64,000 bases of DNA from Abditibacteriaceae bacterium (GTDB lineage: Bacteria; Armatimonadota; Abditibacteriia; Abditibacteriales; Abditibacteriaceae): contig JANPJS010000312.1 in the NCBI GenBank assembly GCA_031425655.1, forward strand, positions 25,062-89,061, in the 5' to 3' direction. A program made the translations under genes and the position numbers. Numbering within the stretch: position 1 is the stretch's first letter; each line of letters starts with the position of its first letter. The notes below the pieces were generated by a model. That model searched no databases, had not been told where the DNA came from, and was given only the letters and a program-made list of their open reading frames with translations. Positions 28,385 through 38,995 of the stretch are shown here, one piece after another.

Positions 28385-28590
28385 GAGTCAGAAGTTTAAC
28401 CCTTTTCTGAAATAATCTCACGCAGAGATGCTTGAAGTAGACAAATGTTCCGTGCCTTTGTCTCATTCATGACTCATTTTTGTAAAATTTCTCGTAAGCG
28501 CAAAGGCACGCATGAGCAAAGGAGGTTGAAGGAATTGCGGCGCGCGAGTTTTCATAAGACCTTTTTCTTCTTTGGGGCCTTGTGTTTAAG

Positions 28591-28620
28591 TTCAATGCTC
28601 CGCGTTGAGCGGCGTATACT
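28591..28620 (+). promoter_or_regulatory. Candidate sigma70 promoter of the KAP-NACHT operon
   Basis: TTCAAT-18 nt-TATACT, 25 nt upstream of ATG 28646. Confidence 0.35.
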
Positions 28621-28645
28621 TTGAGCGACGTTGATTCCGCCATAA

Positions 28646-30145
28646 ATGGAACGAAGCATGAGCGCATTTTTTACACCGCTGAACGACGAGCCGATTATTG
28701 ACGAGCAAGACCTGCTTGGTCGCCGGACGCTGCTGAACGAAATGAAACACGCCATCGCGGAAGGCACGCCGCCGCACGTCTTCGGAATTCATGGCGACTG
28801 GGGTTCGGGTAAGACGAGTTTTCTCCGGCAATTGCGTTATGAACTCACCGGCGAACGAGTGCTTGGCCCGCACGAAAAGTTGACCGGCAAACAAGAAAAG
28901 CAATCGAAGGATTTCGCTACGACAAACGCGCACGTCACTACGATTTGGTTTGAAGCGTGGCGCTATCAGAATGAATCGGCGCCGATTGTCGCGCTGCTGC
29001 ATGAAATCCGTTCGCAGATGACATGGCGCACTCATGCGGCTGCGCAAAGTAAGCAGCATTTGCAGAAGTATGCTGAAGTGGCGATTCGTGGCGGTTTACT
29101 GCAGATGGAGCAGGTCACGAAGATGATCGGCTTTCAAGCGTCTAAAGTGCAGGACGCGGGAGAAGCGTGGGAGCGCGAGCATCTTGCGGTGACGTTGCCC
29201 TCGGATCAGATTCGCGCTCTGCTGGATGAAGTCTTGGGCCAGTTGCTGCCCTCAACCGGCAATGAAGAATGGGATGATAAGCGCCGTCTCGTGGTATTTA
29301 TTGACGATCTTGACCGTTGCGAGGCGGAAACCGCATTTCGTTTGCTGGAAGGCATTAAGATTTATTTAAATCTCACCCGCTGCGTCTTCGTGTTGGGACT
29401 CAATCAGCGGGAAATTCAGCGTGCGATAGCCAAGTTCATTCCGTCCTATAAGAAAGAGTCGGACGAAGGCGAAGTGCTGATTCGCGCGCAGGAATACATG
29501 GAGAAGCTTTGTGGCAACATTCAGCACTTGCCGCTGCCAACCCCCAGCGCGCAGGCGAAGATTGTCGGGCATTTTCTATCGAATGTCGCCAAAGAGCCGC
29601 GGGCCAAAGACGTGAACGCGGAAATCGTGCGTCTGATTGGCGTAGAACCGTCTCTGCCGGCTAATCCGCGTCGCATTAAAGGGCTGTGTAACACCATCGC
29701 GCGGCTCGTGATGCGCCGCCTGCATAATTTGACCAATGGCGAACCGATTCCCATCGCGGAAGCGCGTGTTGTGCTGCTGGTGGCGAGCCTTTATCAGTTT
29801 CATCCGGCGATTTATCGTGTGCTGGCCAGTGACCTGCGTTTCATTGAGGTTCTAAAACGCAAGGCGCGCGAAGTAAAGCCTGCCGGAGATGCCAAATCGC
29901 CGACGATTCACGCTGTTTTGGACGACCTGCAACTAACCTTTCACCAGCCGCCCAGCGCCGAAAGCTCCGTGACGCCTGCAAGCGCGCCGCCGTCGCCCGA
30001 ATCGCTGTTTGCCGACCCGGCTTATGGAAACGTGCTGCACTGCCAACGCTTTCTCGCCGCTGTCGGCGCCGATGAAATCACCGAACAGCAGTTGCGTCCC
30101 TACGTGTCGGGAAATGAAAACGATGCCGCAAAATTCACCATCTAA
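28646..30145 (+). CDS. KAP-family P-loop NTPase (no TM insert)
   Basis: D.LGR, GIHGDWGSGKTS, WFEAWRY, VVFIDDLDRC, EYMEKL, NPRRIK. Confidence 0.9.
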   Translation: MERSMSAFFTPLNDEPIIDEQDLLGRRTLLNEMKHAIAEGTPPHVFGIHGDWGSGKTSFLRQLRYELTGERVLGPHEKLTGKQEKQSKDFATTNAHVTTIWFEAWRYQNESAPIVALLHEIRSQMTWRTHAAAQSKQHLQKYAEVAIRGGLLQMEQVTKMIGFQASKVQDAGEAWEREHLAVTLPSDQIRALLDEVLGQLLPSTGNEEWDDKRRLVVFIDDLDRCEAETAFRLLEGIKIYLNLTRCVFVLGLNQREIQRAIAKFIPSYKKESDEGEVLIRAQEYMEKLCGNIQHLPLPTPSAQAKIVGHFLSNVAKEPRAKDVNAEIVRLIGVEPSLPANPRRIKGLCNTIARLVMRRLHNLTNGEPIPIAEARVVLLVASLYQFHPAIYRVLASDLRFIEVLKRKAREVKPAGDAKSPTIHAVLDDLQLTFHQPPSAESSVTPASAPPSPESLFADPAYGNVLHCQRFLAAVGADEITEQQLRPYVSGNENDAAKFTI

Positions 30146-32393
30146 ATCGCCAACAATTGAATCCATTCCGGCGCCGCAAAAGCCCGACACCGGCGCGTTT
30201 CTCGACACCTTCAACGACAAAACGCTGCTGGCCTATTTTCGGGCAGTGCACGACTGGCACGGCTATATCAAGTTTCTGGGGTTGCCGGCGCTGATTGAAA
30301 CCAGCCGCGATGTGCCGCTGCGGAACCTTTATGTCGAGCCGCGCTTTGCGGCGCAACACCTGACGCCGGAGAGCTTCGACGACGTGGAGAAAGCGCCGGA
30401 AACGGTGGCGGCGATTGAGGCTTTAAAGCAGCATCAGCGGCTGGTGCTGCTCGGCGATCCGGGGTCGGGCAAGTCTACGCTGGTCAACTGGCTGGCCGAG
30501 TGTTTGACGTTCCCGCTCGCCACGTCGGTGACGAGCGCACTGGGGCCGTTGGTGCCCATTCCGCTGATTCTGCGCGAGTTGCAGATTGACGCCTCGATAA
30601 CGTGGGACGCGCTGATGAAGCAGTTTTTGGAGCGTCCCGTCGCCAAGAGTCTGAAGGAGAACCCCGAAACCCTCGAAACGCTGCTGCAAAGTGGGCAGGC
30701 GTTCGTGATGCTCGACGGCATTGACGAAATCGCCAGCGTGGAAACGCGCCAAGCGTTGCGCGATGCGGTGCATGATGGTTTTCGGCGTTACCTGCGCGCT
30801 CAGTGGCTGCTCACCTCGCGGGTGGTGGGCTATGATGAGGCTTCGTTCAATTTTTCCATCTGGCCGAGTTGGACGAGACAAGGGGAGACTATCCATTGGC
30901 GACTAAAAGAAATAGGTCTCCTCTACGCTGCGCCGTTTAACGACGCACAAATCGAGCAGTTTGCGCGCAATTGGTATCATCAGCACGAGAGTAATCCGCA
31001 TTTGGCGGAGCAAAGCCCGGCGGAGTTTGTCGCGGTCGTCGCGGCGAATCAGGGCATACGGCGGCTGGCGCGCATTCCAAATCTGCTGACGTTTATGGCG
31101 TTGATCCATCGCATTCATGCCGACCTGCCGGATGGCCGTGCGCTGCTTTACGCGAAAGTCTCGGAGGCGTATCTCAATACCATTGATTCGTTTCGCAAAC
31201 TGCCGCTGCCGGTCAACTTCAGCTTAGCCGACAAAGAGCGTTGGCTGGCAGTCGTCGGCTTTCGGATGCAAATGCGCCGCTACGAGGCGACATTAAAAGG
31301 CGAGGCAGCGCAAAGCGAAATCTTAGTGCCGGGCGCCGAGGTGCGGCAATGGCTGGCGGAGGCGATGCGTCCCAAAGTGGGCGACGAAGCGGACAAGACG
31401 GCGGCGGCGCTGCTCGATTACATCGGACGGCGCAGCGGACTGCTGCTGCCGCGCGGTGAAGACCTCTTCGCCTTCCTGCACCTGACGTTTCAGGAATACT
31501 TCGCGGCGCTTTTCATCAAAGAGAAGATCAAGTCGCTGACGTGGATGAGGCGCAACACGGTGACGAACGACGACGACTCGGACACCGCGCTGTCGCGTTT
31601 GCGCGACTACGCCAACTCGACGGTGTGGCAGGAAACGCTGCTGCTGCTCTTCGAGAGTCTTTCCGAAGAAGGCGAATGGCCCGACGACCTGACGCGCCTG
31701 CTCTTTGAAAACGACTTCGACCTGGCCGAGCCGCAGCCGTTGAAACAGCGGTTTGTTTGGAATGAAACCCGGCGCAAACATGCTCATAACGACCAAATGC
31801 AAACGCTGGTGCTGCTGGCAGCGATTTCGGTAGACCCGCACAGCGGCCTCAGCGCCGGACTGCGCCCCGGCGTCTGGCGCGCCTGCTGGCAATGGGAGTT
31901 GGAACGGCAGAAAGAAACGGGAGTAGATACGCCCATCGTCGAGAATCAAGTAGCGTGTGCGTTGATGGCCCCGGTCACCTCCCTGCCGCAGGTGATGACG
32001 CAGTTTGCACAAGCGGCGCAGTTGTCACAGCCGGACTGCTTGTGGCTTGGCTACTGTGTAGGTTTGAATGACGTGACGCCGTTGGCGGCTTTGACCAACC
32101 TGTATTACCTCGTTTTGAGCGACACGGCGGTGAGAGACGTGAGGCCGTTGGCGGCTCTGACCAATCTGTATTACCTCGATTTGAGCAATACGGCGGTGAG
32201 AGACGTGAGGCCGTTAGCGGCGCTGACCGAGCTGGGCTACCTCTCTTTGAGAAACACGGCGGTGAGCGACGTGACGCCATTGGCGGCGCTGACCAATCTG
32301 AAACTTCTCACTTTGAGCGACACGGCGGTGAGCGAGGCTGACGTGGCGGCGTTAAAGAAGAAGTTGCCGCACACCCAGATTAGCGGGCCGTAG
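30123..32393 (+). CDS. NACHT (STAND) NTPase with C-terminal leucine-rich repeats, NLR-like
   Basis: LYV, LGDPGSGKST, VMLDGIDE, LLTSR, PNLL, FLHLTFQEYFAA; four to five 22-aa LRRs; ATG at 30114 or 30123 overlaps the KAP gene end. Confidence 0.88.
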   Translation: MPQNSPSKSPTIESIPAPQKPDTGAFLDTFNDKTLLAYFRAVHDWHGYIKFLGLPALIETSRDVPLRNLYVEPRFAAQHLTPESFDDVEKAPETVAAIEALKQHQRLVLLGDPGSGKSTLVNWLAECLTFPLATSVTSALGPLVPIPLILRELQIDASITWDALMKQFLERPVAKSLKENPETLETLLQSGQAFVMLDGIDEIASVETRQALRDAVHDGFRRYLRAQWLLTSRVVGYDEASFNFSIWPSWTRQGETIHWRLKEIGLLYAAPFNDAQIEQFARNWYHQHESNPHLAEQSPAEFVAVVAANQGIRRLARIPNLLTFMALIHRIHADLPDGRALLYAKVSEAYLNTIDSFRKLPLPVNFSLADKERWLAVVGFRMQMRRYEATLKGEAAQSEILVPGAEVRQWLAEAMRPKVGDEADKTAAALLDYIGRRSGLLLPRGEDLFAFLHLTFQEYFAALFIKEKIKSLTWMRRNTVTNDDDSDTALSRLRDYANSTVWQETLLLLFESLSEEGEWPDDLTRLLFENDFDLAEPQPLKQRFVWNETRRKHAHNDQMQTLVLLAAISVDPHSGLSAGLRPGVWRACWQWELERQKETGVDTPIVENQVACALMAPVTSLPQVMTQFAQAAQLSQPDCLWLGYCVGLNDVTPLAALTNLYYLVLSDTAVRDVRPLAALTNLYYLDLSNTAVRDVRPLAALTELGYLSLRNTAVSDVTPLAALTNLKLLTLSDTAVSEADVAALKKKLPHTQISGP
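32070..32333 (+). repeat. Four 66-bp tandem repeats encoding LRRs
   Basis: Units start at 32070, 32136, 32202 and 32268 (GACGTGASGCCRTTRGCGGC...ACGGCGGTGAG). Confidence 0.9.
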
Positions 32394-32552
32394 CCGAGGC
32401 GAAAATGCGTCCGGCAGCCGCGAAAATCGCGCTGACACGCACGCAATTGATGCTGACAGCCGCGAAAACGAGAGTGGCGCCCGCGAAAAGCGTGCTGACA
32501 CTTACGAAATGGTGTCGGCTGCGGCAAAAATGATGGTGGCAGCGACAAAATG
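32394..32552. repeat. Degenerate 21-bp tandem repeat
   Basis: GAAAA-like anchors at 32401, 32422, 32443, 32464, 32485, 32506, 32526 and 32547. Confidence 0.65.
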
Positions 32553-32766
32553 GGCTTTTGACGAGCGCCTGATGACCCGATTTCGCAAAGACCACGGCGA
32601 ATTCGTGACCGCCTAACAGGGCGCCCGCGTCATCATAGACCGAGCCGGCACCGTCAAAACCAAGCTCGCGCCTGCCACGCCGTAGACATGGAGACACGAA
32701 AAAAGGAGACACGGAAATCATTCCGCGTCTCCTTTTCTTTTCACTGACATCGAAGCGCAATTGAAT

Positions 32767-32814
32767 GTAGGGGCACGCTACGGCGTGCCCGGACACGCCA
32801 TAGCGTGTCGCTAC
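32767..32814. repeat. GTAG-type REP doublet
   Basis: GTAGGGGCACGCTACGGCGTGCCC GGACACGCCATAGCGTGTCGCTAC. Confidence 0.7.
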
Positions 32815-32818
32815 GAAA

Positions 32819-35800
32819 TCAATCTTTCACGCTGAGCCGCGTTTCGTCGGAGATTGCGCGGACTTCCGGTGCATACATCGCGTAGCCGTTGGTCGGCAAA
32901 GCGTGGAAGCGGCCCGGAATCTCGGCGCGCATTCGGTAGCGAAGCACGCGCACGCCTTGCGGCAGATGATCCACGAACAGGGCGACTTTGGTGTCGCGCA
33001 GTTCGACGTTGCTGCACAAGCCGTCGCCCCACGCAGAGCCGCTTCGCAAATCAACGGCTTCAAGGCCCGCCGCTTTCATGTCCTCGAACACCAGATACGA
33101 ATAATCGTTGTCGGCATCGAGCGTGAGTTCGACTTCGATTAAATCGCTGCTGACAAGCGTTGCGCCGTCTTTGATTTCGGTGCGCGTGAACTCTTGCTTC
33201 GGCGGCTCTGCCGGGCGCGGACGCGGGAACGGTGGCATAATGCCGCGTCCGCCCACCGCGATTTTGGCGGACGCAACCGCCGGTGCCGTGGTCGTCGCGG
33301 CGCCTGCGCCTTGCTCCGGTTTCACTTCGGGATTGCGCGTCAACTTGAAGTAGCGGCGTTTGATCGCAATGGCGTTGCCCGACGCTTTGATCGGCTCTTC
33401 GAGCGAGAAGTATTCGCTGGCCGCGCTCCAATACACGTTGCCGCGTCCCTGCTTCTCAATCGTCACTTTGTTGGCGCCGTCTGCAAGGAACAAGTCGCCG
33501 CTGATGAAGCGATTATCGAAGAACAGCATATTGTCGGCGGTGACGCGATAGCTGCGCTTGATGCGGTCGTTCAGCGTGACGGTCAGCGTGTAATCCACAT
33601 CCAGTTCTTTGTTGACGCGCACGTAATCGTTCAAGGCGCTGACGGCCATCGCGGTGGCTTTGGTGCTGCGCCAGTGGTTGCCGCGCGACTTGGTGACCAG
33701 CCATTTCATGCTGCGGTCAACCATCGCGTTTTTCGGGTCAATCTGCAAAAAGGCTTTGAGCGCCCAGGCGTTGGTTTCCACGTCGTCGTTCCACCAATAC
33801 CACCATTGATTCGCCATTTTCCAGCGCGCGGTGCCGTTGGCGGCGTCCACGAGCGCGGTGTTTTCCAGATTGCGAACCATCACGCCGGCTTTGTCTTTTT
33901 CGCCGCTATTGGAAAGCGCCAACGCCAGCAACGCTTGCGAATACGGCGTCAGGCGTTCGCGCTGCGTGAATAAGCGGCCCGCCACGACTTTCTGCGCTGC
34001 ATCGCCCATTTTGCCACGCAGCGACAGCGCGTGCGCCATCCACGTTAAAAGGTGCAGATTGTCTTCGTCCGTCATCTGTTTTTCGAGATAAGCGAAGCCG
34101 CGATTCAAAACGTCGTCGCGCACCTTCACTTCGGCGGCTTTGGCCGTCGCCAATCCCCACATCACATAGGCAGTCATGTATTCGTCGCTCTGCGAGGAGC
34201 CGGGCCACCAGCCCCAGCCGCCGTCGCCGCGCTGCATTCCGTAAAGGCGGTCGAGGCCTTCTTTGGTCATCTGATTGACGACAGCTTGGTCGTAAACCGG
34301 ATTCGAGCCGCGATGCGATGTCCACCACATCCGCGAAGCCATTTGTTGCAAATCGCGCGAATTCGGCATTCCCGTCGGATAGGTGTAGCCGGTATTTTTC
34401 ACGCGCTCGCCGATGGGCGCGGCTTTGGCTTCGGCTTCGTAGGCTTGCGCGCGGGCTTTGAGCGTGGCCAAGTTGACGCCGCTATCGGACAGCGTTTTTT
34501 GCACGAGAACCGTCGGCATAAAGCGCGACAGCGTTTGCTCGACGCAGCCATATGGATAATCGGCCAAATAGGGCAGGGCGTCCATCATCGTGGCCGCGAG
34601 GCTCGGATTAAGCTGCACGTTGAGCGAAGTCGCGCCGAAACGACGCTCTTTGGGCAGATTTATCGTCGCCGTGGCCGAATTCACGCCGTTTTTGAGGACG
34701 CCGCTTTGCGATGCGAAACGCTGGATACCATGCACCAAAACCGGGAAATTCATCTTGACGGCGTCGGCGTCTTCGTCGGTTTGCGCGGTCATTTGCACAT
34801 GGGTGTCGCCGTCGCGCGTGACGTTGACAACCCAGTTCACGCGCGCTTCTTCGCCCGCTTTGACTTCGATAAAGCCGGACGCGGCTTTAAACATTTCGCC
34901 CGTTGCGAGGTTGGTTTCGGGTTTGGCTTCGACTTCCAAACCGCTGCCCAAATCGAGCGCGATTTTGACGCGCTTGGCCGACTTCAAATAGTTGTGGACG
35001 TTGGCTGTTAGCACAACTTGATCGCGCTCTACGAAGAAGCGCGGCGCCTGCAAGCGCACGAGCAGGTTTTTCTTGGTTTCCACGTCGTTTTCGCCCGCGC
35101 CGACTTGCACATTTGGCGTGACGCCGCGCGCCGTGGCGTGCCATTGCGTCAGCGAATCCGGGAAAGTGACTTCGACTTTAGCTGTGCCGCCTTCGGTGAC
35201 GACGGCGGGCGACCAAAACGCGGTTTCGGCGAAGTTGGAGCGCACTTGCGCCGTGGCGAGTTGGGTTTCGCCTGCTTGCCGTTGGTCTTTTTTGTCTCCA
35301 GCCGATTCTTTGCGGGCTGCTTTAGCCATCGTTTCCATCGGCGCTCCGCCGAGTCCGCCGGCAGCCGAAGCCATCGGCGCGGAGGCTGGCATGGCCATCG
35401 CGCTATTCGCGGACACCGCGCCGTCGGCCAGCATAAAGTTCTCGGCGCCGCGCATTCCGAGGCGCCGATTGTAGCGCCCGTAGTAACCAAACTGGCCTGG
35501 CGGCAGGTTCAACTGGCCCAGTTCGTCGGGGAATTCCCAGCCGTGCTGCTCGTAATTCTGGTATTTCTGGTCGTCTTCGGTGTGGCCCTGCGGCTGGCCC
35601 GAACGGTGCGAATCGAGGTTGACCGAGTTGGCGCGGCGCTCGCCGTAATAAAACAAGCGAATGTCCGGCGCGTAGTCTTTTTGAATGTAAAACAGGCTGG
35701 CGTCAATCATCGCCACGCTGACTTCGGCGCGGGCCGGATTGCCTTTCCAGTCTTTCGCAGCGATGGTGAAAGTGCCTTTTTCGCCCGGTTTGTATTCGCT

Positions 35801-38800
35801 TTTGTCGCCTTTTACGGAAATATCGAGGAACTGCTTGGTCGGCGGCACGAAAACTTCCTGCTGCGCCTGATACACCTGAAAATTCTTGACCATCGCGGCG
35901 GCGATGGCGAAGTTCGGGACGTGCCTGTGTTCAATCGGAATCGTGATTTCCTTGCTTTTACCTTCGATGAAAATCACGTCGCGCCGCAAAATATCGCCGC
36001 CCGACTCCTGTGTCAGCAAAACCGTGCTGCCCGGCGAATCGGCGATGAGCAGCACTTTGGCGGTGTCGCCTTCTTCATAATTGCGCTTATCAAGCACAAT
36101 CGTCACGCCTTGCAAGCGGAACTGCGTGTTATTGAGGCCCGGCCCGGCGACCCAGATCGTTGTCGAGCCGACGACTTTGTTGCCCCAATCGTCCGTGCTT
36201 TCCCACGCGATGCGAAAATGCCCGGCGTTGTCGGTCGGCCATGTCCAGATGGCGCGGCCTTTCTCGTCGGTGCGAATTGCTTCTTCGAAAATCTTTTCTT
36301 CTTTGTTATCGGGCAGCAGCTTGTAAACCACCATTTTGCCCGCCGTGCTTTGCGGTTTGTCGTTGGCGTCCTGGGTTACGATTTCGATTTGCACACGGTC
36401 GCCGCTGATGTAATAACCCTGTTTGGCGTTGAGAAACGCGAAATATTGCTGATTCGCCACGCGCACTTCGCCTTGTCCTTCAATCGTGCGGCGGCTGGAA
36501 TCGGTCACTTCGGCTTCGATGGTGTAGAGCGGGTTGGAATAGCGCTGCCACCAATCGGTCTCGGATACCTCTTCGCGCTTCGTCGCAAAGCTCACTTCGG
36601 CGTTACCTTGCGCGTCGGTTTTGACCGTTCCTTCTTTGATGATTTCGCCCGCGCCTTCGCCGCCGATGTTGCGCCGTCCCGTGTTGTAATCGCCGACGCC
36701 CCAGTAGGAATAAAGCCACGCGAACGGCTGCGGGAAGCGATAATTGGCCCACCAACGGCTGCGGCGCACGGTATATTTCACGGTCGCATTCGGGACGGGC
36801 GAGCCGAAATAATACTTCGCGTTGATTTTCGCGGCGACGGTTTCGCCGGGCTTGACGGCGTTGTCGGGCGCGTCTACCGTGACGATAAATTCGGGGCGCT
36901 TATATTCCTCGACGCGAAAGCGATTGGCGCCATGCGCCGCGACGTTTTGTTTGGTTTGCGGAACGTGAGCCTGCACCGTGTATTCGCCGAGTGGTGTTTC
37001 CATCGGCAGCATGAATTCGCCGTTGACGGTGCCGAATTCTGAAGTCGTCAGCTTCTTGGTGAAGATGTTCTCGCCCTTCGGATTTGTTACCGTGACGTTG
37101 ACTTCGACGCCCACCATCGGCGCTTGATCGCCTCCGGCCACGCGCTTCGTGAGAATCTGGCGAAAATAGACTTTTTGATTCGGGCGATAAACCGGGCGGT
37201 CGGTGTAGGAATAAACTTTGGCTTCTTCACGATTGCCGCCGTAATAGCCGCCGTAATAATTGCTGCCGGTCAGCGCGTAACGGTTGCCGACCCACGCGAA
37301 AGCCTGCACTTGCTGCGAGTTGCGATTCGGGCCGCGCACTAATTTTTTCTCGAAGAAGCCGACTTCGCCGCTGGTGCCTTTAGCCAAGTCAACGTGGTTG
37401 GCGCTGTTTTCCCAGTAAGTCTCTTTGAGAATCACGTTCGCGCCGTTAATCGGCGCGCCGCTGCGCGCGTCGGCGACAAAAGCCAGAGCTTCGTCGCGGT
37501 CGGTTTTCTTGAGAATCGCAAGGTCGCTGATGAGCAAAACGCGCGCGGTGCGGATGCCGTCGCCTTCGGCGACAATCGCGTAGGCGCCGAGTTCTTTCAG
37601 CGGCGTGTCAATGGTTTCGTTGACGCCCTGATAATCGCCCTTGTCTTTGGAATTAAACGTCCATTCCCCCGCTTTTTCGCCGAAATACTGGCGCGCGTTG
37701 GCAATGCTGCCGAAGTTGCGATCCCACTCGGTGAATTGAAGATTCGGCTGGTTCAGTTTGGCGTCCTGCGCGATGATTTTCTCAAGCTGCACGCGATAAG
37801 CGGTGAACTTCACGCTTTTTAAATTGCGCGTATTGACCGTGATTTTCGCGGCTTCGCCGGGCTTTTGCTGGCCCATCGTGTCTAATGAGATTTCGCGCCG
37901 CGTAATCTGCTGGATTTGCGCTCTGGCGTCGCTCGTCCACTTCGATTTGGGGAATTTATCCAGTAATTCGCGGTAAGCGGCCAGCGACTTGACTTGATCG
38001 CCGTTTTGCTGATGCGTTTGCGCGATGAGAATGAGAACGCGGTCGGCAATCGGGTCGCGCGGGAACTTTTCAATCACTTCGCGCCAAATGGGAATCGCTT
38101 CGAGATGATCGAAGGGATATTCGCGCGTGATATAAGTCTTTTTATCGGGGTCATACCAGTTGGCCCAGCCTTGCATTTGCTGGCGATAGGCGCGCACGAA
38201 CATCCCTTTGGCCAGCAGCGAAAGAACGGTATCGTGCTTGTCGGCGCCTTGATCTAAAGCGCGGATTTCGTTGTAAAGATAAAGAACTTTGGTCGGCAGA
38301 TTCCATTTTGGGTCGTAAGGCAAGCTTTGGTCAACGGTTTCGTCGAGCTTTTTGCGCCCGTCTTTCCACGCTTTTTCGAGCGCCTCGATGAATTTGCTTT
38401 GCTCGCGCGTCGGCAAATAAGCGGCGAGATCGAAATTGAGATCGTTTTCTTCATCCCACGCCATCGGGTGAATCGCCACCAAATAGCGACGGGTTTTGGC
38501 CCATTCGCGCTCTTGCTGCGCCTGCACTTTAGCTTTCTCGAAATAGTCGAGCGTGGCCTGCGCGTCTTCTTCGCCGAGATAAACCTGCACCGGCTTTTCG
38601 GCGCCTTCGACTTTAGGATAATCCTGCCCGCGATAGGTTTTGCCGCCGACTTTGTAGCCTTGATGCGGCACGACGGTGTAAAGCCGGCCCAGCCAGTAAT
38701 AAATGCGCGCTTTCCACTCGGTTTTGCCGAGCAGAGTGTTGGCTGAAGCGAACGCCTCGTCCCACTTTTCGGTTTTGCCCAGGGAAACCGCGATGCGATA

Positions 38801-38995
38801 TTCGATTTCTTCGCGGTCGCGCACGGCGCCGGCAACCAGCGCCGCCCGGTAAAGTTCGAGCGCGCGGGCGTAGCTTTTCTCGTTCCACGCGGCGTCGGCT
38901 TGTTTCACAACGTCCTCCTGCGCGCTTGCCGGTCGCGGCAAAAACAGCGCGCCGAGCAAGGCCAAAAATATCATCCAAAGCGTTAAGCGTTTCAT
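32819..38995 (-). CDS. Bacterial alpha-2-macroglobulin family protein with N-terminal TPR region
   Basis: TDRPVYRP, VEEYKRPEF, VRSNFAETAFW, FPDSLTQW, PYGCVEQT (thioester CxEQ), DGGWGWW, RAEIPGRFHALP..AMYAPE. Confidence 0.93.
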   Translation of the reverse strand: MKRLTLWMIFLALLGALFLPRPASAQEDVVKQADAAWNEKSYARALELYRAALVAGAVRDREEIEYRIAVSLGKTEKWDEAFASANTLLGKTEWKARIYYWLGRLYTVVPHQGYKVGGKTYRGQDYPKVEGAEKPVQVYLGEEDAQATLDYFEKAKVQAQQEREWAKTRRYLVAIHPMAWDEENDLNFDLAAYLPTREQSKFIEALEKAWKDGRKKLDETVDQSLPYDPKWNLPTKVLYLYNEIRALDQGADKHDTVLSLLAKGMFVRAYRQQMQGWANWYDPDKKTYITREYPFDHLEAIPIWREVIEKFPRDPIADRVLILIAQTHQQNGDQVKSLAAYRELLDKFPKSKWTSDARAQIQQITRREISLDTMGQQKPGEAAKITVNTRNLKSVKFTAYRVQLEKIIAQDAKLNQPNLQFTEWDRNFGSIANARQYFGEKAGEWTFNSKDKGDYQGVNETIDTPLKELGAYAIVAEGDGIRTARVLLISDLAILKKTDRDEALAFVADARSGAPINGANVILKETYWENSANHVDLAKGTSGEVGFFEKKLVRGPNRNSQQVQAFAWVGNRYALTGSNYYGGYYGGNREEAKVYSYTDRPVYRPNQKVYFRQILTKRVAGGDQAPMVGVEVNVTVTNPKGENIFTKKLTTSEFGTVNGEFMLPMETPLGEYTVQAHVPQTKQNVAAHGANRFRVEEYKRPEFIVTVDAPDNAVKPGETVAAKINAKYYFGSPVPNATVKYTVRRSRWWANYRFPQPFAWLYSYWGVGDYNTGRRNIGGEGAGEIIKEGTVKTDAQGNAEVSFATKREEVSETDWWQRYSNPLYTIEAEVTDSSRRTIEGQGEVRVANQQYFAFLNAKQGYYISGDRVQIEIVTQDANDKPQSTAGKMVVYKLLPDNKEEKIFEEAIRTDEKGRAIWTWPTDNAGHFRIAWESTDDWGNKVVGSTTIWVAGPGLNNTQFRLQGVTIVLDKRNYEEGDTAKVLLIADSPGSTVLLTQESGGDILRRDVIFIEGKSKEITIPIEHRHVPNFAIAAAMVKNFQVYQAQQEVFVPPTKQFLDISVKGDKSEYKPGEKGTFTIAAKDWKGNPARAEVSVAMIDASLFYIQKDYAPDIRLFYYGERRANSVNLDSHRSGQPQGHTEDDQKYQNYEQHGWEFPDELGQLNLPPGQFGYYGRYNRRLGMRGAENFMLADGAVSANSAMAMPASAPMASAAGGLGGAPMETMAKAARKESAGDKKDQRQAGETQLATAQVRSNFAETAFWSPAVVTEGGTAKVEVTFPDSLTQWHATARGVTPNVQVGAGENDVETKKNLLVRLQAPRFFVERDQVVLTANVHNYLKSAKRVKIALDLGSGLEVEAKPETNLATGEMFKAASGFIEVKAGEEARVNWVVNVTRDGDTHVQMTAQTDEDADAVKMNFPVLVHGIQRFASQSGVLKNGVNSATATINLPKERRFGATSLNVQLNPSLAATMMDALPYLADYPYGCVEQTLSRFMPTVLVQKTLSDSGVNLATLKARAQAYEAEAKAAPIGERVKNTGYTYPTGMPNSRDLQQMASRMWWTSHRGSNPVYDQAVVNQMTKEGLDRLYGMQRGDGGWGWWPGSSQSDEYMTAYVMWGLATAKAAEVKVRDDVLNRGFAYLEKQMTDEDNLHLLTWMAHALSLRGKMGDAAQKVVAGRLFTQRERLTPYSQALLALALSNSGEKDKAGVMVRNLENTALVDAANGTARWKMANQWWYWWNDDVETNAWALKAFLQIDPKNAMVDRSMKWLVTKSRGNHWRSTKATAMAVSALNDYVRVNKELDVDYTLTVTLNDRIKRSYRVTADNMLFFDNRFISGDLFLADGANKVTIEKQGRGNVYWSAASEYFSLEEPIKASGNAIAIKRRYFKLTRNPEVKPEQGAGAATTTAPAVASAKIAVGGRGIMPPFPRPRPAEPPKQEFTRTEIKDGATLVSSDLIEVELTLDADNDYSYLVFEDMKAAGLEAVDLRSGSAWGDGLCSNVELRDTKVALFVDHLPQGVRVLRYRMRAEIPGRFHALPTNGYAMYAPEVRAISDETRLSVKD

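What the first reader, a model, noticed from the sequence alone, without database searches (positions are those of the whole stretch)
28646..32393. Candidate new defence system: KAP NTPase coupled to an effector-less NACHT-LRR (NLR-like) protein
Seen: two overlapping co-oriented genes with their own candidate promoter, divergent from the left neighbour and convergent with the right, with repeat and remnant debris at the right edge. Gene 1 is a soluble KAP NTPase with intact Walker A/B. Gene 2 has intact NACHT motifs and C-terminal LRRs, but only about 110 aa before Walker A and no recognisable nuclease, TIR, SIR2, caspase or TM effector. Known: KAP NTPases include the phage-exclusion protein PifA, bacterial NACHT/STAND proteins act in anti-phage defence, and NACHT plus LRR is the animal NLR layout. 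Inference: a two-NTPase sensor/executor pair in which the LRR senses a ligand and the KAP protein carries out the response. I do not recognise this pairing as a named system.
Basis: partly seen in the sequence, partly recalled or inferred. Interest (0 to 1): 0.82.

Follow-up and report, generated by a model that had tools for sequence, protein, structure and literature searches.

The report
NLR-like sensor with separate KAP partner
Two overlapping bacterial genes, an ATPase and an immune-receptor-like protein that lacks its own killing domain, travel together as one cassette across distant bacteria and prophages, and relatives that carry a built-in killing domain drop the ATPase, so the ATPase probably supplies the missing output of an undescribed anti-phage system.

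Summary
Window 28646-30145 encodes a soluble KAP NTPase and 30123-32393 a NACHT-LRR whose predicted fold matches NLRC4, NOD2 and NLRP3. Its N-terminal 110 residues are part of the NACHT module, not an effector. The pair is a conserved cassette: 22 of 22 distinct scorable loci of this NACHT subfamily with a short N-terminus have the KAP directly upstream, and 0 of 4 with a fused caspase, DUF4062 or calcineurin-like phosphoesterase do. These fusions arose separately (AU test). The two proteins co-diverge, the LRR concave face changes fastest, and four copies sit in prophage cargo positions. No PADLOC or NCBIfam model fits the pair, and ten paper searches found no description. Best reading (0.55): an NLR-like sensor with the KAP as its effector in trans, acting by abortive infection. 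Not shown: binding, trigger, target or any phenotype. The cellular loci are not in recognisable defence islands, and effector-less bNACHT01 protects alone. This scan noted the same pairing twice before on other DNA (e1-2931576, e1-2388458).

The parts
28646..30145 (+). Gene 1: soluble KAP-family P-loop NTPase (499 aa; alternative start 28661), a bare NTPase module with no appended enzyme domain; proposed effector in trans
   Evidence: Pfam PF07693 1.3e-29; AF2 pLDDT 88; best fold RdrA, VIA Z 17.3, rmsd 4.0, 324 aligned, model 27-479
28793..28816 (+). KAP Walker A, G50-T57
   Evidence: G50, G53, G55, K56 invariant in 36 of 36 paired KAPs
29291..29317 (+). KAP Walker B region, V216-R224 (VVFIDDLDR)
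   Evidence: D220, D221, D223, R224 in 36 of 36
30123..32393 (+). Gene 2: NACHT-LRR, NLR-like (756 aa), overlapping gene 1 by 23 nt; proposed sensor
   Evidence: Pfam NACHT 6e-9, LRR_4 2e-10; AF2 pLDDT 88; Foldseek best NLRC4 8e-15, then NLRP9, NOD2, NLRP3
30123..30437 (+). Pre-Walker-A segment (aa 1-105): about 31 residues of leader plus the helix and strand that belong to the NACHT module; carries F26 and W45, which effector-fused relatives lose
   Evidence: Model residues from 32/33 align with NLRP3 from 134/135, NOD2 from 200, NLRC4 from 99; kept in fused relatives; W45 in 90% of 103 short forms and 0 of 16 fused
30453..30476 (+). NACHT Walker A, G111-S118
   Evidence: G111, G116, K117 in 36 of 36
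30714..30728 (+). NACHT Walker B, D198-E202
   Evidence: D198, D201, E202 in 36 of 36
31479..31481 (+). Winged-helix His453, by motif the counterpart of NLRC4 H443
   Evidence: 36 of 36; role of H443 from Kibby et al. passages; the equivalence is inferred from the FxHL[ST]FQE motif, not from a residue-level superposition
32028..32390 (+). LRR domain: 5 repeat strands plus a terminal strand, internalin-type 22-aa repeats; concave-face residues vary fastest
28385..28645 (.). Intergenic region shared with the divergent halogenase-like gene; must hold the cassette's promoter, none recognised
   Evidence: no site here at the scan's threshold
32394..32818 (.). Right-edge spacer: degenerate ~21-nt-period repeats (32399-32510), frame piece with an internal stop (about 32560-32690), hairpin 32701-32736, short palindrome with copies on contig C284; not part of the conserved cassette
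   Evidence: L001 and other loci have different flanks

Best explanation
A two-gene anti-phage cassette built like an NLR whose effector is a separate protein. (1) The LRR domain binds a phage protein, or a phage-altered host protein, on its concave face [inferred from domain layout and variability]. (2) The NACHT module leaves its ADP-bound closed state and oligomerises, as NLRC4 and bacterial NACHT proteins do [inferred from intact motifs, fold and family knowledge]. (3) The oligomer recruits the co-translated KAP NTPase and nucleates its ring [inferred from the swap pattern; binding not tested]. (4) The activated KAP stops the infected cell, most plausibly by heavy ATP turnover or by acting on a membrane or housekeeping target, as PifA and Tmn do [least certain step]. 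Shown here: anatomy, conserved pairing, co-divergence, mutual exclusion of KAP and fused effectors, fastest change in the LRR, prophage carriage.
For: Pairing: all loci were reached by NACHT queries. 22 of 22 distinct short-N-terminus loci with upstream DNA have the subfamily KAP directly upstream on the same strand; spacing is -23 to +16 nt in 17 of the 18 measured and 357 nt in L013. 0 of 4 effector-fused loci have it (L003 caspase, L008 and L010 DUF4062, L132 phosphoesterase), and the 97%-complete genome G048 lacks the KAP altogether. Controls: 0 of 66 more distant NACHT loci have a KAP hit, and 0 of 18 distant viral KAP loci have a NACHT hit. In 401 genomes of the phylum, KAP is in 9 and NACHT in 10, and all 9 are among the 10. 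The three fusion types lie in separate places among KAP-paired sequences. One clade is rejected for fused forms (p-AU 7e-62) and for paired forms (2e-72) on 28 of the 62 rows. Co-divergence: Mantel rho 0.92 over 36 pairs and 0.71 over the 12 locus-verified ones, 0 of 2000 shuffles as high. More distant KAP domains occupy the N-terminal effector slot of NACHT-FGS, NACHT and NB-ARC-TPR proteins (P0249, P0250, P0245, P0247, P0251). LRR: window against L001, 2 of 20 concave positions are identical, against 52% of 73 other LRR positions and 69% of the core. Over 322 repeats the concave positions have entropy 3.1-3.9 bits and differ between adjacent repeats in 64-80% of cases. Prophages: L110-L112 lie just after an integrase, with an S24 repressor further downstream in L110 and L111; L113 lies after tail and lysis genes. 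Patchy spread, about 2.5% of genomes, with unrelated flanks. Literature: PifA, a KAP without TM helices, aborts T7 infection (PMC13001434, passages). A KAP-related NTPase is predicted as a variable effector beside caspase, TIR and HD domains in APE systems (10.64898/2026.10.19.760177, passage).
Against: No phenotype, trigger or target is known. 0 of 99 neighbouring ORFs scanned is a credible defence gene; 5 had generic domain hits. The KAP has no enzyme domain beyond the NTPase, and its closest solved fold, RdrA, is a scaffold for a separate effector. Effector-less bNACHT01 protects alone (Kibby et al.), so lack of an effector does not force a partner. The four fused loci stand for only three events, and L003 and L010 have under 1 kb upstream. 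For the other fused proteins (13 of the 14; P0159 is L003's protein) no locus was seen. 24 of the 36 pairs in the co-divergence test rest on equal contig lengths. W45 is absent from 11 of 36 paired NACHTs, mostly the divergent ones, including all prophage copies. dN/dS is below 1 in every LRR class and dS is near saturation, so positive selection is not shown. Co-divergence is expected of any co-inherited operon.
Confidence: 0.55

Rival explanations
1. Defence cassette with the roles reversed or shifted: the NACHT-LRR oligomer is itself the toxic output, as effector-less bNACHT01 appears to be, and the KAP is its regulator (inhibitor, disassembly motor or guarded decoy whose disturbance by phage releases the NLR).
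For: bNACHT01 has no fused effector, is not in an operon and protects. The KAP is a bare AAA+-like module, comes first in the operon and is the most conserved part in the prophage copies (91% against 74% core identity in L110/L111), as a guarded or regulatory component might be.
Against: It does not explain why the KAP is lost exactly when caspase, DUF4062 or phosphoesterase domains are gained, three separate times: those proteins would still need the regulator. A fast-changing LRR face fits direct ligand sensing better than guarding a conserved partner.
Confidence: 0.18
2. Two-step or two-sensor switch: the KAP senses or scaffolds, like RdrA, QatA or PifA, and the two NTPases together recruit an unlinked host protein that is the real effector.
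For: The closest solved fold is RdrA, a heptameric scaffold for a separate effector. All 36 KAPs score weakly on QatA. Neither protein has a recognisable enzyme effector. A two-step NTPase cascade is proposed for STAND-ParA systems.
Against: No third gene is conserved beside the pair. The cassette moves between distant phyla and into Pseudomonas prophages, which is hard if it needs a specific host partner.
Confidence: 0.15
3. Not phage defence: a signalling or other conflict module (against plasmids, predators or competitors, or for programmed death in aggregates).
For: No defence-island context in the cellular loci. Defence and non-defence STAND clades are interspersed (PMC13581612, passage).
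Against: Prophage cargo positions, patchy presence (10 of 401), interchange with immune-type effector domains, and a hypervariable LRR face all fit invader sensing.
Confidence: 0.1
4. Chance neighbours or an assembly or annotation artefact.
For: None found; the right flank holds debris.
Against: 22 of 22 adjacency, co-divergence and purifying selection on both genes (dN 0.05 against dS 1.10 for KAP in L110/L111).
Confidence: 0.01

Closest known systems
Bacterial NLR-related proteins (bNACHT; Kibby et al., bioRxiv 10.1101/2022.07.19.500537), especially LRR-bearing bNACHT16 and effector-less bNACHT01
   Same: NACHT module with intact Walker motifs and winged-helix His; C-terminal LRR sensor; relatives carry caspase and calcineurin-like effectors, both named in that paper's effector list.
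   Different: bNACHTs are described as single genes, rarely in poorly conserved operons, and 'KAP' does not occur in the main text. Here the effector-less form always has a dedicated KAP gene. Whether bNACHT16 belongs to this subfamily was not tested; its sequence and the supplements were not available.
Avs/STAND pattern-recognition receptors (Lee et al. 2026, PMC13581612)
   Same: Sensor-NTPase-effector layout with exchangeable N-terminal effectors; some are prophage-encoded.
   Different: The passages read describe N-terminal effector domains. 'KAP' and 'LRR' occur neither in the main text nor in the 7 supplements searched; three further supplementary files were too large to read.
KAP-family defence NTPases: PifA, QatA, PDC-S20; and RdrA of RADAR
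   Same: KAP NTPase domain without TM helices; weak profile hits to PDC-S20 (7e-25), QatA (9e-18), PifA (7e-16) over the NTPase part only; fold closest to RdrA (Z 17.3).
   Different: Far below the QatA cut-off (76 against 600 bits). No QatB-D, RdrB or PifC genes nearby. RdrA has over 780 residues with an extra C-terminal layer. None of these is partnered with an NLR-like protein in the texts read.
Animal NLRs (NLRC4, NOD2, NLRP3) with adaptor or effector recruited in trans
   Same: NACHT-LRR fold over nearly the whole length.
   Different: No CARD or PYD; only about 31 residues precede the NACHT module; the partner is an NTPase. Recruitment through death-fold domains in animals is recalled, not from a call.
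nSTAND2 two-gene STAND operons and KAP-for-STAND displacement (Kaur et al. 2021, PMC8195603); Orc/CDC6-KAP neighbourhoods (PMC10853773)
   Same: Mobile operons of two or more P-loop NTPases predicted as counter-invader systems (passages).
   Different: There both NTPases are STANDs with one inactive and fused to GT4 or HEPN, or the KAP replaces the STAND, or Orc/CDC6 copies are present. Here an active KAP and an active NACHT-LRR stand alone.

Membership tests
KAP NTPase family | Pfam KAP_NTPase above the curated cut-off | tested here: met
   103.8 bits against 20
KAP NTPase family | Intact Walker A and Walker B with following D-x-D-R and later Y-x-x-K and N-P-R motifs (motif names recalled) | tested here: met
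   K56, D220, D221, D223, R224, Y284, K287, R342 in 36 of 36
KAP NTPase family | TM helices (present in many members, absent in PifA) | tested here: not met
   Highest hydropathy 1.41 here; 34 of 36 paired KAPs under 1.6. Soluble type, like PifA
Bacterial NACHT / NLR-related proteins (bNACHT) | NACHT module with Walker A/B, sensor Arg, helical-domain Pro and winged-helix His | tested here: met
   Pfam NACHT 36.4 bits against 26.7; residues in 36 of 36; fold NLRC4/NOD2/NLRP3
Bacterial NACHT / NLR-related proteins (bNACHT) | C-terminal repeat sensor | tested here: met
   LRR_4 41 bits against 27
Bacterial NACHT / NLR-related proteins (bNACHT) | Fused N-terminal effector or adaptor (usual, except clade 14) | tested here: not met
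   Residues 32-105 align with the NLR NACHT module and are kept in fused relatives; only about 31 residues remain
Bacterial NACHT / NLR-related proteins (bNACHT) | Anti-phage activity | not testable with these tools
   Needs plaque assays
Qat (QatABCD) | QatA equivalog score and qatB, qatC, qatD in the operon | tested here: not met
   76 against 600 bits; no Qat hits among 99 neighbours; gene 2 has no Qat hit
RADAR | RdrA plus adenosine deaminase RdrB | tested here: not met
   Fold resembles RdrA, but no RdrA or RdrB profile hit, and the partner is a NACHT-LRR
PifA / PDC-S20 (single-gene KAP systems) | Full-length match to the profile | tested here: not met
   PDC-S20 positions 17-236 of 464, PifA 68-233 of 720 only
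Catalogued Avs / PADLOC STAND systems | Match of the STAND protein to a system profile | tested here: not met
   1 of 36 members has any PADLOC hit at 1e-5, a generic mad8; EruA hit covers 40 residues of the P-loop only, 35 against 1000 bits. The library dates from 2023 and lacks later Avs families
Catalogued Avs / PADLOC STAND systems | Membership of one of the 90 defence STAND families of Lee et al. 2026 | tested here: inconclusive
   No hit for KAP, LRR, WP_155772343, brassicacearum or Haloferula in 7 supplements; the clade tables may lie in the 3 unread files

The most novel reading that the evidence does not exclude
A widespread, undescribed class of bacterial NLR in which the effector slot is filled in trans by a second P-loop NTPase: ligand-bound NACHT-LRR oligomers nucleate a KAP ring that is itself the killing machine, and this KAP partner has been exchanged repeatedly for fused caspase, DUF4062 and phosphoesterase domains. 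It would be a natural bacterial model of a sensor NLR coupled to a separate NTPase executor, and would show that a bare KAP module is an effector.
Probability: 0.4. Interest if true: 0.82.

Novelty: new variant of a known kind. Interest (0 to 1): 0.64.

Why it matters
Bacterial NLR-like proteins are understood as single chains of sensor, NTPase switch and fused effector. This family shows a separate NTPase gene taking the effector's place, and swapping with three classical effector types. If the KAP is the executor, this explains how an effector-less NACHT-LRR can act and gives a switchable handle on the old question of how soluble KAP proteins such as PifA arrest infected cells. Compact copies in Pseudomonas prophages (WP_081339731.1, WP_155772343.1) make it testable at once, and an LRR sensor with a hypervariable face is a close bacterial parallel of animal and plant NLR recognition.

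Tried and rejected
Hidden effector in the N-terminal 110 aa: rejected. Hidden enzyme domain in the KAP C-terminus: none seen, the RdrA alignment spans model 27-479, but the C-terminal part was not folded and searched alone. Fusion of this KAP subfamily to its NACHT-LRR: none among 42 hits of 960-2740 aa (best 166 bits; weak evidence by the tool's own note), and the best 150 representatives are 245-559 aa. Promoter: not found. Defence-island context: not found; 99 chosen neighbours of 16 paired loci were scanned, not all ORFs. Positive selection on the LRR: not shown, dS is saturated, and my repeat pattern caught only 1-2 repeats in the prophage proteins, so their concave-face counts are not used. 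Plasmids: 1 distant KAP and 3 distant NACHT records. INPHARED phages: 1 distant hit. E. coli genomes: no DNA match to L110. The single-protein scan of genome contigs gave only 2 loci, so loci from other phyla came from metagenomes and viral contigs. The first AU test on all 62 rows did not finish; it was run on 28 rows chosen to cover every group, with most long branches left out. The careful tree did not finish, so one search is the quick tree. Expression: no RNA holder listed. Papers not held: Kibby et al. Cell version and Aravind et al. 2004. Own genome: one KAP match only; one distant NACHT on C148 and LRRs on C193. Searches of earlier scan findings by sequence, by place and by swap words gave nothing.
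Full report
Observation. The two genes are as described. Gene 1 (28646-30145, 499 aa) is a KAP NTPase (Pfam 1.3e-29) and gene 2 (30123-32393, 756 aa) a NACHT protein with C-terminal LRRs. They overlap by 23 nt. The upstream halogenase-like gene is divergent and the downstream alpha-2-macroglobulin gene convergent. G+C is close to the flanks (0.55 and 0.59 against 0.58-0.59), so this is no compositional island. No promoter was recognised upstream. The closest relatives come from records titled Abditibacteriaceae. The genome holds one KAP match.

Anatomy. The KAP model (pLDDT 88) is a bare NTPase module without TM helices. Its closest solved structure is RdrA of RADAR (Foldseek 1e-5; VIA Z 17.3, 324 residues, next non-RdrA hit Z 14.2). 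The NACHT-LRR model (pLDDT 88) matches NLRC4, NLRP9, NOD2 and NLRP3. From residue 32 or 33 it aligns with the NLR NACHT module (NLRP3 from 134/135, which I recall as the FISNA region). The same segment is present in relatives that carry fused effectors. The N-terminal 110 residues are therefore not an effector. Catalytic and switch residues of both proteins are invariant in 36 of 36 pairs.

Conservation of the pair. The KAP defines a large subfamily: 1631 hits at E 0.001 among 8000 candidates, the best 120 at 36% identity or more, and at least 150 clusters at 50% identity scoring 353 bits or more. The NACHT search gave 1015 hits among 7998 candidates. The two independent top-120 lists share 25 contig lengths, the window's included; one pair has consecutive locus tags, JXQ75_14715 and JXQ75_14720. 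At DNA level, 14 of 80 metagenome loci belong to the NACHT subfamily; the other 66 score at most 268 bits and none has a KAP hit. Of the 14, 10 of 10 short forms have the KAP directly upstream (L005 and L006 are near-duplicates with a split KAP; L009 is frameshifted; L013 has a 357-nt gap), 3 are effector-fused without KAP, and L015 cannot be scored. In 401 genomes of the phylum the KAP occurs in 9 and the NACHT in 10. Eight show adjacency on one contig, G237 is cut by contig ends, and the tenth, G048, has a phosphoesterase-fused NACHT-LRR and no KAP. Class-level searches of 228, 68, 31 and 71 genomes, which overlap the first set, added one pair, G530, with a frameshift early in the NACHT. Among 22 viral KAP loci, the 4 of this subfamily are all followed by the NACHT-LRR and the 18 distant ones never; L142 begins inside the cassette. 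Total: 22 of 22 against 0 of 4 (Fisher 7e-5, which overstates because kin are not independent). Named hosts include Haloferula and Chthoniobacterales (KAP), Phycisphaerae and Pseudomonas brassicacearum (both genes), and Hydrogenedentes, Acidobacteriota and Gemmataceae (NACHT).

The swap. 14 of the 120 best NACHT hits have a long N-terminus: caspase (2), DUF4062 (7) or calcineurin-like phosphoesterase (5). On the tree of 62 cores the three types lie in separate places among KAP-paired sequences, and caspase-fused P0134 is the sister of KAP-paired P0132 (quick tree with several long branches). On 28 of these rows a single clade is rejected for fused forms and for paired forms. The direction of each swap is not fixed by this. 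Of 198 positions conserved in at least 70% of 103 short forms, three collapse in the 16 fused forms: W45 (90% against 0%), F26 (82% against 12%) and P224. F26 and W45 are candidates for a docking surface, but W45 is missing in 11 of 36 paired proteins, the divergent ones, and the change could reflect packing of the fused linker. Other KAP subfamilies are fused at the N-terminus of NACHT-FGS, NACHT and NB-ARC-TPR proteins, which shows that a KAP can occupy the effector slot.

Signs of conflict. The partners co-diverge. Both are under purifying selection, and the LRR changes fastest. The concave positions of the repeat are the most variable across 322 repeats and between the window and L001 (2 of 20 identical). 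Repeat number varies from 0 to 15 by a strict pattern that misses divergent repeats. Three prophage copies follow the integrase and one follows tail and lysis genes; I recall these as typical cargo sites. Against this, cellular copies sit among housekeeping genes: no credible defence gene among 99 neighbours, and no conserved third gene.

Mechanism. Most likely (0.55) the LRR senses an invader ligand, the NACHT oligomerises, and the KAP is recruited as effector and arrests the cell. The precedents are PifA, which lacks TM helices yet causes depolarisation and nucleotide leakage, and Tmn, which turns over ATP on sensing (PMC13001434, passages), plus the prediction of a KAP-related NTPase as an exchangeable effector in APE systems (10.64898/2026.10.19.760177, passage). 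Rivals are the KAP as regulator or decoy of a self-toxic NLR (0.18), the KAP as sensor or scaffold with an unlinked host effector (0.15), and a role other than phage defence (0.10). The step from KAP activation to cell arrest is the weakest.

Comparison with what is known. Gene 2 is a member of the bacterial NACHT (NLR-related) family and gene 1 of the KAP family. The pair fits no PADLOC 2023 or NCBIfam 2026 model. Ten full-text searches found no description of a KAP plus NACHT-LRR operon. What I saw of each paper: Kibby et al. bioRxiv, passages and the whole Supplementary Discussion, no 'KAP' in the main text, supplements not seen; Kaur et al. 2021, passages; the DGR preprint 10.1101/2023.09.22.558884, passages; Lee et al. 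2026, abstract, passages and 7 supplements searched, 3 files unread; PMC10853773, one passage; the Tmn and ParA preprints, passages; RADAR, abstract and outline. The library lacks most subscription papers, and the unread supplements may list this clade.

Earlier notes. Two earlier findings of this scan describe the same pairing on other DNA. I had written my reading before opening them. They are not independent evidence, and their figure of eleven phyla was not checked here.

Verdict. A real, conserved and apparently undescribed two-gene variant of bacterial NLR-related systems, with good comparative evidence that the KAP fills the effector slot and no functional evidence yet. Novelty: new variant of a known kind. 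Interest 0.64.

Noticed in passing
L097:6382-7800 (-), L098, L021:9501-10772: KAP-paired NACHTs whose LRR is replaced by low-complexity short repeats (Ser-Leu/Ser-Arg runs, Arg-Ala-Leu-Asp runs); no Pfam match for L097 and L021.
   Followed up: partly
L003:640-4401: Caspase-fused NACHT-LRR of this subfamily with a Pepco gene directly upstream in place of the KAP.
   Followed up: partly
P0249, P0250, P0245, P0247, P0251, P0254: Single-chain proteins with an N-terminal KAP domain before NACHT(-FGS), NB-ARC-TPR or TIR-STAND-TPR; distant from this KAP subfamily.
   Followed up: partly
L027, L028, L034, L040, L041, L052, L063, L064, L065: Tandem clusters of two or three distant NACHT genes in metagenome loci, without KAP.
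   Followed up: no
window 32819-38995 (-): 2058-aa bacterial alpha-2-macroglobulin with N-terminal TPR-like region, convergent with the cassette.
   Followed up: no
window 32394-32818: Degenerate ~21-nt repeats, a frame piece with an internal stop and no paralogue in the genome, and a short palindrome with copies on contig C284.
   Followed up: partly
L099:1103-5818 (G000:C148): A second, distant 1571-aa NACHT protein with a long N-terminus in the window's own genome, no KAP beside it.
   Followed up: no
L133:2003-6223 and L097:10804-13767: Large ORFs (1407 and 988 aa) next to cassettes with no Pfam or PADLOC match.
   Followed up: no
L005, L006, L009, L010, L138: Five loci carry a frameshift or stop in one partner or in the fused gene; sequencing error or decay was not told apart.
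   Followed up: no
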